From Octopus sinensis (Eukaryota), in the NCBI RefSeq assembly GCF_006345805.1, contig NC_043006.1:19468001-19532000 (forward strand): a DNA stretch of 64,000 nucleotides. The letters run 5' to 3'. A program made the translations under genes and the position numbers. How positions within the stretch are numbered: position 1 is the stretch's first letter; every line of letters starts with the position of its first letter. The notes beneath the pieces were generated by a model, which had not been told where the DNA came from, ran no database searches, and saw only the letters and a list, made by a program, of their open reading frames with translations. Below are positions 1 through 50,034 of the stretch, piece after piece.

Positions 1-542
1 CCTCCAGCGGTCCAGTGAGAAAGAGAAAATAGTCGCAGACTATATATATATAAATTCAACAATATAAAGGAATGACCCTGCGACTATTTTCTCTTTCTCA
101 CTGGACCGCTGGTGGCGAAAAAATTTCTATTGAATTTTTTGCTACTCTATATTGATTAATTAATGATTTTTGACTAATTCTGAAATTGAATCAGCAGTTT
201 ATATTTGCTGCTGACAAGTTGGCGCGATTACGGTAGATTTTGAAAAGTTAGAGTATATATTCCCGAGGCATCATTGAGGCTGCCTCGGGGAATATTTATT
301 CCTCCTGGTTTCCTTGCCGATGAGACGAACCAATGGTAGATTGACTTGATTAAATTTAATTTAATTTAATTAGGCTGGTTTGCCATAAATTACGTTGAAA
401 CAATGCATTGTCCAAGGATGATTAAGGTAAATGTTTTTGATTTTCATTTAATTTCTGAATTACTACTATTTAGCGGTTTGAGTATGGCTGCTCTTTCTAG
501 TGAGACGAATGGCCTACCAGGGTCATTCCTTTATATTGTTGA

Positions 543-2704: not shown

Positions 2705-2862
2705 GTTCTTCTTTCAGTTTCCGTCTACCAAATCCAATCACAAGGCTTTGGTCGGCCCGAGGCAATAGTAGAAGACACTTACCAAGGTGCCACGCAGTGG
2801 GACAGAACCCAGAACCATGTGGTTGGTAAACAAGCCACTTACCACACAGCCACTACTGCGCC
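2705..2862 (-). mobile_element. SINE family B, head half
   Basis: Matches the 5' ~160 bp of family B. Confidence 0.85.
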
Positions 2863-2865
2863 AGT

Positions 2866-3119
2866 TCTAAAAGGATTTAACGGAAACGGAAACGTACCAC
2901 TTAACAAGATTTGACTGCAAAACCATCAAATTTTACGGACTTTCAAAAATTCACAAGAGTGAATCCATAGATGGAGCTTCTAGCAGATCAACGTCATTGG
3001 TTATTAATATGTTACATCACAGAGATCTCAAAATGAGACCAATTGTGGTATGTCCGTCCTGTGAGGCACATAGACTTAGTAACTTCACTGAAATTCTTCT
3101 AAAACCCATTCTTAGACAC
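2866..3119 (+). pseudogene. Penelope-like RT fragment
   Basis: Translates as KFYGLSKIHK...DLKMRPIVVCPSCEAHRLSNFTEILLKPILRH, the PLE RT YGLPKIHK/RPI motif region. Confidence 0.85.
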
Positions 3120-4053
3120 TTACTGACATTTTCCCAGTTGTGAGAGGCCGAATATGTTGCCTGCGTATTCTCACTCTGTTACTCAAAGTCAAGCTCTTAA
3201 TCCGCATTTGAAAACATAAATTAAGTTCCTCGACGCACAGGTGAAATGATTTTATTATAGTTAATGTTTGCCCTGGCTTGACTGTTGAACCTTCCATAAA
3301 GTTGATACATGTTCCACAATTAGGACGTTTGAATGTTTTGACTATTGCAATTGAATTTTTGGTGTGTAATTTGTCGCTAACCTTTTTAGAGACTTACGGA
3401 ATAATACCCTCTTTCTCATCGCAGTCCCAGACATTTGTCTGTAGATGCTGTCACTGAAGCTATAAAAAAAAATGCAAATACTGTATTACTGATGTTATAA
3501 CCTGTTCAGCTATAGCTTGTTTTCTTATTTGTTTTTGTTTGATCTGTTATATTATATCATCTGAACATTGATAGAATGGAAAGACATAAAACGTAGGAGA
3601 TTTGTTTTCCATACGTGCATCCAGATGTTCCTCTAGTGGAATTTGTGGACGATGGATTGTTAATTTCATTCTTAGAGAGAATTTAATTTGACACTGCATC
3701 CATTGCATTTGATGGCGTATATTAAATTGTTTGAAGAACAAGTAAAATGGTTTTTCACAGTAAAACGTGTCTCGGTTTAAGTGTAAAAGCTGTGTCCTCA
3801 AAAATGTTGTCACAAGTTCCACATGTTTTAGCTGATCGGCCACACTTTTTAACCGTTGGAATTGAGTCTGCAGTCGGTAGTTTCGCGTCGGTAAGTAGTC
3901 TTTTTTAGAGATTTTGGTTATCTTTTCCATTTGATTATTTTGTGTTATTCAAGTACCTTTTTTCCTTTCTGGGCCTCGGCTCAATATAGGTACCTTCTGA
4001 TGGATAATGTTCAATGTTTGTTGAATGTTTCTATGCTTATTGTGTTGTGTAGT

Positions 4054-4435
4054 GGAGGCGCTATGGTCCAGTGGTTAGGGCAGCGGACTCGCGGTCGTAG
4101 GATCGCGGTTTCGATTCCCAGACCGGGCGTTGTGAGTGTTTATTGAGCGAAAACACCTAAAGCTCCACGAGGCTCCGGCAGGGGATGGTGGTGATCCCTG
4201 CTGTACTCTTTCACCACAACATTCTCTCACTCTTACTTCCTGTTTCTGTTGTACCTGTATTTCAAGGGGCCGGCCTTGCCACTCTCTGTGTCACGCTGAA
4301 TATCCCCGAGAACTACGTTAAGGGTACACGTGTCTGTGGAGTGCTCAGCCACTTACACGTTAATTTCACGAGCAGGCTGTTCCGTTGACTCGGATCAACC
4401 GGAACCCTCGTCGTCGTAACCGACGGAGTGCTTCC
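4054..4435 (+). mobile_element. SINE family A (tRNA-derived)
   Basis: A box tggtccagtgg, B box ggtttcgattcc; TSD attgtgttgtgt. Confidence 0.92.
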
Positions 4436-4866
4436 ATTGTGTTGTGTGTAGTAATCAAAGATTGGGTCTTGAGTGTATCAACTGATTTTGGCTTTTCGTA
4501 ATTATTCGGTTCTATTCTATTCTCTTTCAGAGTAGACAGGCACTTTCTTTCACGCAGCGCTTGATCTAATTCAAATGATATATCCTGAACTTCTAGATTG
4601 GAGACAATTGCTTAGATTCTTCTAGCTAGATTTAAATGTGATATTGGATTTAATATACTTTGAGTGGCATGAAGTAAATAGTAGTTATTGTTTAGAGTAT
4701 GTTGGTTTACAGTGGACGTCGGTTTCTTGTCATTCTTTATAATCAAAATGTCTAAGAAGAGTGGTTGGTTAAATTCTATTGTGAACTGAATACTGTTATT
4801 GATGCTACTGAGTAGGAATTTGAAATTATTGAATTCATCTAGGTAGTATGTCCACAGAAGAAAGCA

Positions 4867-5092
4867 CGATCTGGCAGAATCGTTAGCACACCGGGTGAAA
4901 TGCTTAGCGGTATTTCGTCCGCCGCTACGTTCTGAGTTGAAATTCCGCCGAGATCGACTTTGCCTTTCATCCTTTCGGAGTCGATAAATTAAGTACCAGT
5001 TACGCACTGGGGTCGATGTAATCCACTTAATCCGTTTGTCTGTCCTTGTTTGTCCCCTCTGTGTGTAGGCCCTTGTGGGTAGTAAAGAAATA
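4867..5092 (+). mobile_element. SINE family C (Nin/Deu-like central domain)
   Basis: ctggcagaatcgttagcac head; gcctttcatcctttcgg..gtcgataaattaagtacc core. Confidence 0.88.
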
Positions 5093-5914
5093 ACAATAAG
5101 GCGAGATTTTCACCAGATAAGTTAGGAAGTTGATACCGTACTTTGTTTGGTTTTATTGGTAGGTGTTTTTCTAGAAAATGAAAAGATCGTTTTGAAAGGT
5201 GAATATTAATCCCTCTGTGATGAATTGTGTACTAATTCGGTCCGAATATTATCGGGGGAATTCTCTTAGCTAAACTTCTATTGCATCTTGTCAATACTCG
5301 TATAAGATGGTAATATAAAAATTTACTATATCAAATGAAGCGATTATGGTATCCTGTTAACTTTTTTCGGAAGATAGTTTAATAGGTCTTGGTCACCTCT
5401 TATGGAACTTCGAATAAATTATAAAGGACGTTTTAACAGTAAGTCAAGGATGTTGCTAAATATGTGAGTTTCACAGGCTAGGCCTGCCACAGTTAGCCTT
5501 AATTTGATCTATTTCAGAAAGAATATGTTTATAGGAATCTGTTTTACTTTCATAGATTTTGGGAAATTCGTAGAAAATGATTTTAACTATAACGATTTGT
5601 TAGAAAATCAATTTCTTTATTAGTTAAGACTTTTCTGTGTTGGTTTATGAGAGTGTTATGGTTATACATTGTCTTTGTTGATAGATGTTTACAATTTTAT
5701 AGTGGGCAATAACTTGAAGGAGAGTTAATGCAGTATTTTTGCATTGTTCCATCTTCATATATGCAGCACTTCCCTTATGCGCTTCTTTTACGACTTATTA
5801 CTATTGTCCTTTTAGGGTTTCCATTGTGTTTTACAAGAGTTGGACTTCGGTTTAGGAAGTGAAAGTTCATTGTAAGTGAAGGTGGATAGAAACTCAAAAT
5901 TTAACGGTGAAAAC

Positions 5915-35195: not shown

Positions 35196-37740
35196 ATGTA
35201 AGTATGTATACATGCATATATATAATAACACAAAGGGAGGAATTTCGGTTATCCCCAGGTGGTGAATTGTAATGCAAAATATATATGTATAAAATAAAAG
35301 AAAGAAAATGCCCCTTTACATGCTTCAATATATTTTTAAGTACATTTTATATTGAGTTTCGGTAATCATGACATTGAAATTAATGTAATTTCGTATTTTC
35401 TTAAGAAGATTTTAAACCAGGTGTGTGGAGAATTTTATGAATGAATGATTCAACAAGTAGAAAAATCTGAGGGCCGGTAATACATGATCGTTATTATTGG
35501 GAACAGAGGAAGTAATTGTTCATCTTTCGGAGATGGGGGTGAATAAATATATGCAAAAACTCAAAGGTTAAAATAATGAGATGAAATATGTACAGTGTTG
35601 GGTATGAGATCATGAACTAAAATATATACTATGATCAAAGTTGGTTATGCGTTCATACTTAGACGTTTTCTGTATTCTTCGATGGACAAATTTTCTTTAT
35701 TTAAACGTTCGTGAATAGAAAATGTTTCATTGCACTGGTTGATGAGGAAAACTGTGAAGCTTGGTTGGATATACCTGCACATCTCTCTATGGAATCTCGA
35801 AGGAATCTGTCTGTATTGCGGGAACCGGATCTTTTCCTTATGTAGTGTGATTCTCCGTCGCAGTTTTATACTTGTCCGTCCTATATAGTTATCCCTACAA
35901 CCTGAGCAATTTGTACCATAAATTAGATTCTCGGAAGCACAAGTCAAGTTGGTTTTAATTCTGAACCTCTCTCCTTGTTTGTATAAGAATTCCGAGCCTA
36001 GGAAGGGGCATGTGCCACAGTCTTGATGTCCATATTTTTTTACCGTTGCTTTTGTGTTTGTTGTGAAAAGCTTCGCATTTATTAGACGTCTTTTTAGCGA
36101 ATTGTGTTGCTTTTTGCATTTCATTAATTTATGCTTTTACAGAATAGTGTCCATTTTTAGATCTCTAGTGGGCTTAGGTAGATTTTGTAAAATAGTATTG
36201 TATGCCTCATTGCTTCTAGGGTTGTGAGTTGATATATATAGAAGTGTTTTGAGATGAGGTTTGGTGTTATGTTTTGTTGGCCTTAGTGTTTTAATGTCTA
36301 ATTTCTTAGCACGCTTAATTCCATCGTCTATAAGTGAGGGTGGATTTTGTCTTTCAGTTAGTGTTGCTCTGAAGTTTTGAAGACGAAGGTCCCGAGTATT
36401 TCTATCAGACACTAATATGTAAACCCTTTTTGCTACATTAAAGAGGATATTCCTTTTTATGTGTTTCGGGTGGCATGAGCTAAACAGGAGATCTTGCTTC
36501 GAGTCTGTTGGTTTATGATAAATGTTATTTATAATTTGGTTATTGACTTGTTTTTATCATAATATCCAAGAAAGGGAGCTGTTTTTTTGCTACATTCCAT
36601 TGTGAATTGAATATTAGGGTTTATATTATTTAGTATTGATTTGAATTCCAAAAGCTTACCAGTGGCCTCCTTCCAAATGATAAAGCAGCTATCCAGGTAT
36701 CTTTTCCAGTATCTCTCTTATATAATTATAAAATGGATATCCATACTGAAATGGATATCCATATTTTTGCAATGACACTTCATATATAGTGAATTCAAAA
36801 TAATCCATTATTAGGTTCGCATGAACAGGGGCTGCTTTCGTTCCCATCGCAATTCTGCATTTTTGACGATAGTAGGTGTCATCAAAATAGGAAGTAATTG
36901 TTCTAAAGTGTAAATTTTAAAGATCCAATAATAAAGACCTGGTTTATGCGTTCCAGAAGCACTACAGGGTACTTTTCCACCAAGACTTTTGTTGCTTCTA
37001 TTTCGTAGTCAAGTAGGATGCTGGTGTAAAGATTAATAACATCGAAGGAAACCAATAATGCCTTTTCATTAATTGTTTTTGGTAAGTACTCTAGTATGCC
37101 TAGATCGTCTGTAATGAAACTTTTGATGTTTTTCAGCAAGGGTTTCAGCAGTATGTCTAGAAAATTGATTACGCGGTGGGTTTCACAGGCTGGGCCAGCT
37201 ATAATGGGTCTTAACTTTAAGTCTTCTGACACTTGGATATTTATGTATTTGCCTGGTGATTACTTGCAGGCTTCATTAACTATCTTGCTCTTGTGTATTT
37301 TAGGTAGGCTGTAAAATGACTAGGTTTACATTTAAAGTTCGTGATATAATATACTTTTTTCTGTCAGGTCTTTTCCATGTAAAATTATTAAGGATGCAAG
37401 CTTTATATTGTTTTTGTTGTATATAGCTTACAATTTTTTCGTAGAGGATATCGTTTTCTACCATGGATAATACTAGGTTTTTGTAGCATTCTGTGTCCAT
37501 CAGGACTAGAACGCTTCCTTTGTCTGCTTCTTTAATTGTCAGTTCTTTGTCGTTTTGTAATTCCAATAGATTTTTCCATTCTAGATTGTTGAGGTCTGAA
37601 TTAACTTTTCGCTTACGAAAAATATTTTGGAAATTTTGGTTGTGGGAGCAGAAGTCATCTAGGGTTTTATTCTTACCTTTGGGTGGAAGATAATTACTTC
37701 TATTTTTAAACAATGATTCATCCTCGTTGTTGTATTCAGG
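35190..37740 (-). mobile_element. Penelope-like element (Neptune-type RT + Cys-rich GIY-YIG), frameshifted
   Basis: IKEADKGS, LRPIIAGPACETHR, VSFDVINLYT, WKRYLDSCFIIW, CGTC...NLIYG.NCSGC..NYIGRT...RRRI.LH; 3' end runs into (TA)n. Confidence 0.92.
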
Positions 37741-38165
37741 CGACTGCTCTCTATTGTCAGAGGTGGATTAGCGCAACCGGTCAGCGGTTGCTGTGAAAAA
37801 GGTGGTGGAACGAAAAAGGGGACAAAGAATTAGTTTAGGAGTTATGTACCTTGGTTGGGTGTGCTGTGAAGCCGGCAAGAGTTATCTTGCAGTGGGGAAA
37901 GTGTGTATTATTAATGTGGTGTTCCTGTATGGATGGGTTGTGTGGTATGTGTAGCGATGTCATGTGTATAATTTTTTCTGGGGGTGTAAATTTATACAGC
38001 TGTGTTCGTTGATCTGTTTACTTTCTGTAAACAATAAAGTCGTGGGTGGGATTATGTTAGTGTGCGTTGAGTTATGAGTGTATGTGAGATCTGTGTATAT
38101 GTGGAGGTACAATTTGTGTGAAGGGGTATATGTTGGGGTGGGAAATACAGTTTATTTTGGAGGTG

Positions 38166-39037: not shown

Positions 39038-39492
39038 TTATCATTAATTAAAATCTTAGGGTAGCAAGAATATTAATCGAAAAATTCTTAGTTACCAGCG
39101 GTCTAGCGAGAAAGAAAAAATAAGTCAATAGACTATATACTATTTAAAGAATACAGTGCGCGTTCAAATACAAAAGAGATACCCGAAGAATAGGATATCT
39201 AACTCGCTAGAAAGAGCAGTTAAAGCTCCGTACCTATGTGTTCAGTCCTGGCAACCTGCTGAAGAAGCAGGGCCAGATATAGACTGAAATTATTTTCTTT
39301 CAGTCTGTATTTAAGTCTGCAGAAACCTTGCAGGGTCTAGGATTAAGGTAAAAGTTTTTATTTTTCCAATCACTTTCGGAATTGCAACAATTAGTGGCTT
39401 GGAGTTTTAACTGATCTTTCTAGCGAGTCAGATATCCTATTCTTCGGGTATCTCTCTTGTGTTTGAACGTACACTGTATTCTTCTTTGAATT
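39038..39492 (+). mobile_element. Hammerhead-bearing foldback element in (TA)n
   Basis: Arms 39147-39229/39401-39483; left extension with ccagcggtctag; HHR in the loop. Confidence 0.8.
39255..39341 (+). ncRNA. Type I hammerhead ribozyme
   Basis: cctg CTGAAGA a gcag...(agactgaaa/tttcagtct inner stem)...ctgc a GAAAC cttgcagg GTC tagg. Confidence 0.82.
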
Positions 39493-48864: not shown

Positions 48865-49075
48865 CTTTATTTAAGCAGCAGAAAATTCAAAAAAATCGTA
48901 CTCTGAGTTTCTCGTTGCGTTCATCAGACAGTTTTGCTGTTGATGAACGGCAACGAGAAACTCGAGTAACAGATTTTGTTGAATTTCTGCTGCTTATTTG
49001 CTTTACTATAACCACTGGTATTTGAGTACTCTTTTTTCCACCTTGTTCACATTTATGTGTTTACTACGGTTATAT
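48865..49075. mobile_element. Foldback with two head-to-head hammerhead motifs
   Basis: Minus 48899-48931: ctgt CTGATGA acgcaacga GAAAC tcaga GTA; plus 48937-48972: ctgt TGATGA acggcaacga GAAAC tcga GTA acag; extension with accactgg. Confidence 0.78.
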
Positions 49076-49076
49076 A

Positions 49077-49107
<31 letters not shown>

Positions 49108-49539
49108 CCAATTAAGGACTGAACACGAAAAAGTGGACAGTCAACATGCTAGATATAGACGTCAAATCGCCATTCTCCACAAAAGGATTATGTTCTCAAA
49201 TCAAACTCGACACAAACCCAAGCAATAAACAAGTGAAAATATACGTAAAACAATACTCATCCATGTACTGAATCAGTTTCGACTATTATTATCCGTAAGG
49301 ATACCTGTAGTCTTCGTCAGCATGGCCGATATATTGCTTGGGTTTGTGTTGAGTTTGATCTGAGAACATAATCTTTTGTGGAGAATGGCGATTTGACGTC
49401 TATATCTAGCATGTTGACTGTCCACTTTTTCGTGTTCAGTCCTTAATTGGTATATATAAATATTTAATCTTCGGATTCTTTTTTAATATGCTAGACCACT
49501 GGTTTTAATTGATAAATATTGATTTCTACCCTTAATTAA

Positions 49540-49545
<6 letters not shown>
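49108..49545 (-). mobile_element. Hammerhead-bearing foldback element in (TA)n
   Basis: ~120-bp arms 49108-49227/49332-49450; extension with ctagaccactgg...ctacccttaattaat. Confidence 0.85.
49261..49325 (-). ncRNA. Type I hammerhead ribozyme, intact
   Basis: Minus: ccatg CTGACGA a GACTA cagg TATCC ttac GGATA ataa TAGTC GAAAC tgattca GTA catgg. Confidence 0.9.
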
Positions 49546-49596
<51 letters not shown>

Positions 49597-49607
49597 CATA
49601 TATATAT

Positions 49608-50034
49608 AGCAATAATAAATCTCTAAACGAGATATAAACAGTAACTGCTCTATAACATAAGGGGCCTTATGTTATAGAGCAGTTACTGTTTATATCTCGT
49701 TTAGAGATTTATTATTGCTTTCGAACGGTTTTTCTACACCAGTCAATGTGTTTTACTGTGAAAACCCTTAAATATAGCCTGTACAGAGAGTTATTCGTCG
49801 GAGAAAGCGGTGCTTACCATGCGTTGATAATAGGCAAATACCTTGAAACCTGGTCCGTATGTAGCATCCGCTTCTTCGGGGAATGACCTCCCTTTGCAGG
49901 CTAGAGAACACCGAGATGGCGTCAGCCCTTCTGGTGACGTTGATAATCGCCTGGGGCTAAATGCATCAGTAACACCCCCACCGCCCTGCCCTGTCCCTAG
50001 CCACATTCAGATGGCTAATGCCCCTTATGTCATA
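49608..50034 (+). mobile_element. Foldback plus ~358-nt unit with terminal direct repeat
   Basis: Palindrome 49608-49719; ccttatgtYata at 49665 and 50023; HHR inside. Confidence 0.75.
49818..49861 (+). ncRNA. Type I hammerhead ribozyme, U3:A8 variant
   Basis: catgcg TTGATAA t agg caaata cct t GAAAC ctg GTC cgtatg; stem I is 6 bp. Confidence 0.72.

What the first reader, a model, noticed from the sequence alone, without database searches (positions are those of the whole stretch)
49108..49545. Cleanest example: intact HHR in the loop of a 120-bp foldback
All core nucleotides are present, stem I is ccatg/catgg, and stem II is bipartite with an extra A after A9. The arms differ at only a few sites, so the insertion is young. 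The antisense arm reads past the TA point where the sense arm stops, into a ctagaccactgg...ctaccct extension, exactly as in 39038-39492. This is the best candidate for biochemistry. Any transcript would form long dsRNA, a possible ADAR or small-RNA substrate (inference).
Basis: partly seen in the sequence, partly recalled or inferred. Interest (0 to 1): 0.72.

Follow-up and report, generated by a model that had tools for sequence, protein, structure and literature searches.

The report
Penelope-type insertion of a hammerhead retrozyme
This foldback is one cut-short copy of an abundant non-coding jumping repeat that carries a predicted self-cutting RNA and lands in TA microsatellites as two back-to-back arms with two fixed end points, the footprint of a Penelope-type copying enzyme that likely starts on both cut DNA strands; it is a new member of a known kind of animal parasite.

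Summary
Observation confirmed: an intact type I hammerhead (minus strand, 49325-49261, predicted cut after 49266) lies between 120-bp arms that are 97.5% complementary; one arm runs about 95 nt further into a conserved tail. The locus is a truncated insertion of a ~510-bp non-coding tandem repeat (animal retrozyme, non-autonomous Penelope-like element) with hundreds of copies. The foldback is the family's normal scar: 26 of 30 copies picked only by the short end have an inverted partner ending at the long end, nearly always flanked by (TA)n. The ribozyme is in the loop only because one arm was copied past it and the other was not. Stems I-III covary, and stem III is palindromic. Folding predicts a misfolded monomer and a perfect double hammerhead, so this lone copy is a poor biochemistry candidate; natural dimers elsewhere are better. 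Likely mechanism (inferred): a borrowed Penelope RT/GIY-YIG primes cDNA on both cut strands at two fixed RNA sites, and the two cDNAs are end-joined. The partner element was not identified. Cleavage, expression and editing are untested. The scan reported the same kind of element and two-end pairing on other DNA before.

The parts
49070..49107 (.). Left (TA)n-rich flank (target microsatellite)
   Evidence: sequence
49108..49227 (-). Short-ended ('A') arm: unit positions +39..+158 after the cleavage site, ending at the fixed site ...TTAATTGG|TATA
49228..49333 (-). Single-copy loop: continuation of the A arm to unit position about -65, containing the ribozyme
49261..49325 (-). Type I hammerhead: stem I 5 bp, CUGACGA + extra A, bipartite stem II, GAAA, palindromic stem III ACUGAUUCAGU, predicted cut after GUA (49266)
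49332..49333 (.). Head-to-head junction, 2-nt (TA) overlap between the two arms
49332..49450 (+). Long-ended ('B') arm, shared part (unit +39..+157), opposite orientation
49451..49545 (+). About 95-nt tail between end sites A and B; reaches the end of the 510-bp unit
49491..49532 (+). Conserved tail motif CTAGACCRCTGG + hairpin + CTACCCT, shared by several ~470-510-bp families; candidate protein-binding signal (inferred)
   Evidence: (2075 matches, control 0)
49546..49609 (.). Right (TA)n flank
   Evidence: sequence

Best explanation
This is a 5'-truncated, head-to-head insertion into a (TA)n microsatellite of a ~510-bp non-coding, hammerhead-bearing tandem repeat (an animal retrozyme), likely made by a borrowed Penelope-like RT/GIY-YIG protein. 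Shown: the unit, its tandem arrays, two fixed 3' ends (A and B, about 95 nt apart, flanking a conserved motif), their near-obligate pairing in opposite orientation, TA flanks, and covarying ribozyme stems. Inferred: the endonuclease nicks both strands of (TA)n; one DNA end primes cDNA at UAUA site A and the other at site B of uncleaved multimeric or circular RNA; the two cDNAs stop at independent points (here -65 and +39) and are end-joined through a 2-nt overlap. Predicted: the hammerhead cuts as a dimer (double hammerhead via palindromic stem III) in multi-unit transcripts to release unit-length RNA that would circularise. This lone copy is likely an inert by-product.
For: 510-bp period in L017 and arrays of up to about 19 units; longest stop-free frames are short. 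A-end pattern 662 matches, tail motif 2075, controls 0. First 30 of the 662 A-end matches in coordinate order: 26 A+B inverted, 1 A+A, 3 single-armed (8 of the 26 were read by hand because the subfamily-3 reference lacked the motif); 26 of 27 versus a coin toss p = 2e-7. All 64 loci: 50 A+B, 1 A+A, 1 B+B, 3 B+other, 9 one-directional; both flanks TA in 39 of 41 automatically called A+B loci. In 13 of 27 single-unit loci, this one included, the A arm reaches more than 10 nt further 5' than the B arm, so neither arm can be a copy of the other. 25 of 55 junctions have 0-2 nt overlap. Covariation: 99.1% of cells paired, 9 of 19 pairs with double changes, slid controls at most 38.7% (12 hand-picked variants, structure taken from this copy). 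The dimer MFE is the double hammerhead in 3 of 3 subfamilies. A young coding Neptune-type PLE in the genome also targets (TA)n, has A/B ends with a ~40-nt tail, and 6 of 25 tail-ended copies have an inverted A-ended arm within 1.5 kb. Literature: PMC8557442 (inverted 5'-truncated copy, one-sided tail), PMC11167929 (both strands cut and extended, two RT start sites bounding the tail), PMC4209133 (extra nucleotide after A9, palindromic helix III, dimers).
Against: No autonomous element sharing the unit's sequence or tail motif was found among 69 PLE-ORF/GIY-YIG loci (29) or in the cut supplement of PMC8557442. Arm 5' stops are not enriched at the cleavage site (4 of 58 within -3..+4, p = 0.42), so there is no genomic footprint of cutting. 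Array units share variants non-periodically, which is not what copying one monomer circle would give. The tail is about 95 nt, against 30-40 nt in print. In PMC11167929 initiation is at a site not homologous to the target, whereas here A and B are TA-like. Only 1 of 9 Xenopus retrozyme dimers cleaved in vitro (bioRxiv 10.64898/2026.07.22.740005).
Confidence: 0.8

Rival explanations
1. Self-priming or fold-back synthesis on an antisense template or on the first cDNA makes the inverted arm (model proposed for head-to-head Penelope inserts in PMC3846280), with the tail produced by endonuclease resolution of the intermediate (PMC8557442).
For: Arms within a locus share subfamily variants (within-locus 2.8%, inflated by gap placement, versus between-locus median 5.2%). 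A few junctions are palindromic, with both arms stopping at the same unit position (L091, L107, L152).
Against: In 13 of 27 single-unit loci neither arm contains the other. In L152 the two arms carry different subvariant marks. Most junctions are blunt, have 1-2 nt overlap or have filler, not palindromes.
Confidence: 0.12
2. The unit is the pLTR/3' end of an unsampled protein-coding Penelope-like element, and this locus is only its truncated end, not a separate non-coding element.
For: Ribozyme features match PLE minimal HHRs (PMC4209133). Most PLE insertions are 5'-truncated. The GIY-YIG search scored only 150 of 5029 candidates.
Against: All 10 arrays examined and the tail loci consist of head-to-tail ~500-bp units; 244 exact unit-to-unit junctions; tblastn found no PLE ORF joined to a unit in 60 loci (hits only elsewhere in the window and in an L004 flank).
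Confidence: 0.06
3. A MITE or other DNA transposon whose terminal inverted repeats captured a ribozyme, or a host-selected hairpin gene (small-RNA or editing substrate).
For: Long near-perfect inverted arms and TA flanks.
Against: The arms have unequal fixed outer ends and random inner ends. The same sequence forms direct tandem arrays. The loop content differs at every locus. No Rfam family reaches its gathering score.
Confidence: 0.02

Closest known systems
Animal non-LTR retrozymes (PMC7229834: passages and section 14 read; bioRxiv 10.64898/2026.07.22.740005: parts 1-3 of 5 read)
   Same: Non-coding, low-GC tandem repeat with one type I HHR per unit, monomers to multimers, co-occurring with PLEs; dimer-dependent ribozyme as in amphibian retrozymes.
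   Different: Unit is 500-510 bp (170-400 nt in PMC7229834; 51-972 bp range in the preprint). Insertions are mostly two-armed head-to-head in (TA)n with two fixed ends; 'inverted' does not occur in the main text of PMC7229834 and once in the preprint (count, place not looked up). circRNA not tested here.
EN+ Penelope-like elements: pLTR, inverted 5'-truncated copy and tail (PMC8557442: passages, section 11, supplement searches and part 23 of 59; PMC3846280: passages; PMC11167929: parts 1-2 of 4)
   Same: Inverted truncated copy, one-sided tail, partial tandems, (TA)n targeting, HHR upstream of the 3' end, two end sites.
   Different: No ORF; tail about 95 nt, not 30-40; the inverted partner is near-obligate (26 of 30) rather than 'often'; the end sites are TA-like.
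PLE minimal/variant hammerheads (PMC4209133: parts 1-2 of 4)
   Same: Short stem I (5 bp), long stem II, unpaired nucleotide between A9 and G10.1, G10.1-C11.1 pair, palindromic helix III, predicted dimer action; opposite-strand pairs 100-700 bp apart were already noted there.
   Different: Stem II is bipartite (5 + 5 bp); helix III has 3 Watson-Crick pairs beyond A15.1-U16.1; the extra nucleotide is U in subfamily 2 and absent in subfamily 3.

Membership tests
Type I hammerhead ribozyme | Conserved core CUGANGA / GAAA / NUH with C3-G8 and G10.1-C11.1 | tested here: met
Type I hammerhead ribozyme | Three stems, open stem I, supported by covariation | tested here: met
   stems I, II, III 100% paired, 9 of 19 pairs with double changes (12 hand-picked variants)
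Type I hammerhead ribozyme | Match to an Rfam hammerhead model | tested here: not met
   (loop alone): no hammerhead family up to E = 10; none among the 150 of 200 rows shown
Type I hammerhead ribozyme | Self-cleavage after N17 | not testable with these tools
   folding predicts a dimer; no enrichment of arm stops at the site
Animal non-LTR retrozyme | Short tandem unit with one HHR per unit, at least two consecutive units | tested here: met
   L017 trimer, L144 and other arrays; this locus itself is less than one unit
Animal non-LTR retrozyme | Non-coding, no LTR/PBS/PPT organisation | tested here: met
   six-frame translation without a long frame; PBS/PPT not searched separately
Animal non-LTR retrozyme | Expressed as unit-length linear and circular RNA | tested here: inconclusive
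   only contigs of runs guessed to be RNA
Penelope-like element insertion | Inverted 5'-truncated copy and one-sided tail | tested here: met
Penelope-like element insertion | Microsatellite (TA)n targeting | tested here: met
   39 of 41 loci with TA on both flanks
Penelope-like element (autonomous) | ORF with telomerase-like RT and GIY-YIG | tested here: not met
   no ORF in the unit; such ORFs exist elsewhere in the genome
Non-autonomous PLE | Sequence homology to the pLTR/3' end of an autonomous partner | tested here: inconclusive
   none among 69 sampled loci; only a small part of the candidates was scored
MITE | Fixed-length element with equal terminal inverted repeats | tested here: not met
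   unequal ends, variable inner breakpoints

The most novel reading that the evidence does not exclude
The family records a strictly coupled two-strand priming reaction: one Penelope RT-endonuclease dimer, bound on the conserved CTAGACC hairpin, primes one target strand at site A and the other at site B about 95 nt away on the same uncleaved or circular RNA. The head-to-head palindrome would then be the programmed product of Penelope-type retrotransposition rather than an accident, and this 510-nt RNA a minimal substrate for reconstituting it.
Probability: 0.45. Interest if true: 0.6.

Novelty: new member of a known kind. Interest (0 to 1): 0.33.

Why it matters
The locus itself is ordinary. 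The family gives countable in vivo support for two open ideas: that animal retrozymes are mobilised by Penelope-like enzymes, and that the Penelope tail and inverted copy come from two start sites used on the two cut strands (shown in vitro only for one lizard element). It also seeds the genome with hundreds of long near-perfect hairpins, which would be dsRNA if read through; that is untested.

Tried and rejected
Rfam scans found no hammerhead; the window-wide hits were microsatellite matches to miRNA models. One search used a mis-indexed structure and was replaced. One search used a subfamily-3 reference that ran into an inverted arm and was replaced. (B-end count) double-counts reverse-strand matches and was not used. 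Expression: no RNA holder listed; contigs of guessed-RNA runs cover parts of the unit and locus, but they cannot show strand, ends, level or editing, and the A>G differences also appear in the non-RNA runs: no verdict. Partner search: Neptune-type ORFs and GIY-YIG hits share no unit sequence. The motif-bearing foldback abutting a full Neptune-type copy in L187/L194 may be two independent TA insertions. The CTAGACCG match at the 5' end of Naiad_Obim in the PMC8557442 supplement is not kept in Naiad_Ovul and was rejected; that supplement is held cut, so unseen parts may bear on the partner. The 270 bp upstream of the L017 array is another repeat. No cleavage-site enrichment of arm stops. A monomer rolling-circle signature in arrays was not seen. 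No PDB relative of the PLE ORF. A paper search for penelope-like + head-to-head + both strands + target-primed gave 0; some searches gave only the papers cited, so I found no paper stating obligate A+B pairing within these searches. The host taxon was not tested.

Full report
Observation. On the minus strand the loop reads stem I CCAUG (49325-49321), CUGACGA (49320-49314), an extra A, a bipartite stem II, GAAA (49280-49277), stem III ACUGAUUCAGU, GUA with N17 at 49266, and CAUGG. A strict descriptor finds this one site in the window and none in 300 resampled windows. The arms 49108-49227 and 49332-49450 differ by two substitutions and one indel. The right arm runs on to 49545 through the CTAGACCACTGG...CTACCCT motif, and both ends meet (TA)n. 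The 39038-39492 element has a related ribozyme on the plus strand and the same motif, but aligns at only about 66% around the tail. Rfam misses the ribozyme.

What it belongs to. A genome search gave 133 matches from 40 of 1364 candidates scored. L017 holds three head-to-tail units of 510 bp without a long reading frame. Related subfamilies of 500-509 bp form arrays of up to about 19 units. The tail motif has 2075 exact matches, the short-end pattern 662, unit-to-unit junctions 244, and this ribozyme variant 18 at 16 loci; all reversed controls were 0. The window copy spans unit positions about -65 to +158 in one arm and +39 to +251 in the other, so it is less than one unit.

Insertion anatomy. 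Copies end at two fixed sites: A, just after ...TTAATTGG, and B, the unit end about 95 nt further on. I took the first 30 of the 662 A-end matches in coordinate order (three were replaced by longer fetches of the same loci). 26 have an inverted partner arm ending at B, 1 has A+A and 3 are single-armed (8 of the 26 were read by hand). Over all 64 loci, which include sets chosen by similarity, by ribozyme and by array length, 50 are A+B, 1 A+A, 1 B+B, 3 B+other and 9 one-directional. 39 of 41 automatically called A+B loci have TA on both sides. Inner breakpoints are scattered, and 25 of 55 junctions have 0-2 nt overlap (2 nt here). The same layout holds when each arm is several units long. The ribozyme falls in the A arm, the B arm, both or neither (6, 3, 1, 17 of 27), so its place in the loop here is incidental.

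Ribozyme. Across 12 hand-picked variants of three subfamilies, 99.1% of cells pair, 9 of 19 pairs show double changes, and slid controls reach at most 38.7%. The sequences are related and the structure came from this copy, so this is support, not a probability. Stem III is a palindrome in each subfamily, loop-less in subfamily 3. For 3 of 3 variants the two-molecule MFE is exactly the double hammerhead. PMC4209133 (parts 1-2 of 4 read) describes the same traits in PLE ribozymes and found no cleavage for a single motif. Arm stops are not enriched at the cleavage site (4 of 58, p = 0.42), and many arms pass through it, so the templates were uncleaved multimers or circles (inference).

Mechanism (inferred). 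PMC11167929 (parts 1-2 of 4) shows a PLE protein cutting AT-rich DNA, extending both strands, and starting at two RNA sites that bound the tail; it predicts a dimer and finds the ribozyme dispensable for insertion. PMC8557442 (passages, section 11) and PMC3846280 (passages) describe the inverted truncated copy and the one-sided tail. Two cDNAs primed from opposite target strands, one at A and one at B, then end-joined, give exactly this layout. Simple fold-back copying does not fit 13 of 27 loci where neither arm contains the other, including this one. Arms usually share subfamily marks, which suggests one RNA or one source; L152 is an exception. If each strand chose A or B freely, half the pairs would be alike; 26 of 27 are not (p = 2e-7).

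Partner. The genome has intact Neptune-type RT + CxxC + GIY-YIG frames (clade name from the CxxC linker described in PMC8557442; no tree built). One young two-ORF family targets (TA)n and has a ~40-nt tail, and 6 of 25 tail-ended copies carry an inverted A-ended arm within 1.5 kb. It shares no sequence with the unit, and no partner was found among 69 sampled loci. This is the main gap.

Against and untested. There is no footprint of cutting and no monomer-circle signature in the arrays. The tail is longer than in print. Expression and editing are undecided. Arm identity is typical for the family: 5 of 30 pairs have no differences, so the copy is recent but not exceptional.

Verdict. This is a new member of a known kind: an animal retrozyme with a Penelope-type scar (PMC7229834, passages and section 14; bioRxiv 10.64898/2026.07.22.740005, parts 1-3 of 5). 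Earlier notes of this scan report such elements and the two-end pairing on other DNA; my counts were made before I saw them and extended afterwards. Interest 0.33; the coupled two-strand priming reading would deserve about 0.6 if shown.

Noticed in passing
window 39038-39492: Second family of the same superfamily: plus-strand type I HHR (core at 39259) with long stem II, inverted arm and the same tail motif.
   Followed up: partly
window 1-260: Another tail-motif foldback, cut by the window edge; motif variant CTGGACCGCTGG on both strands.
   Followed up: partly
window 35645-37767, minus: Decayed Penelope-like RT + GIY-YIG element (DKG-like motif, CxxC linker), about 50-60% identical to an intact 782-aa frame elsewhere. 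Further PLE fragments at about 2850-5700.
   Followed up: partly
window 48871-48998 and 49608-49719: Two further short foldbacks directly flanking the finding, from other repeats.
   Followed up: no
window 13883-13805, minus: Another type I hammerhead motif with a long stem II and short palindromic stem III.
   Followed up: no
L187 6439-1750, minus (G000:C19): Young two-ORF Neptune-type PLE (479-aa ORF1 + 781-aa RT/GIY-YIG; many copies 96-99% identical); several copies carry a UUGAUAA...GAAA hammerhead-like core variant near the 3' end.
   Followed up: partly
L194 / L187 6470-7001: A tail-motif foldback abuts the 5' start of a full Neptune-type copy with no TA run between: nested insertion or template jump.
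   Followed up: partly
L071-L073: 474-bp tandem family with the same tail motif whose hammerhead core reads CCGAUGA (U4 changed to C) with a perfect palindromic stem III.
   Followed up: no
L144 (G000:C5:61583000-61592900): About 19-unit array, still built as two inverted arms with one A and one B end; unit variants recur non-periodically.
   Followed up: partly
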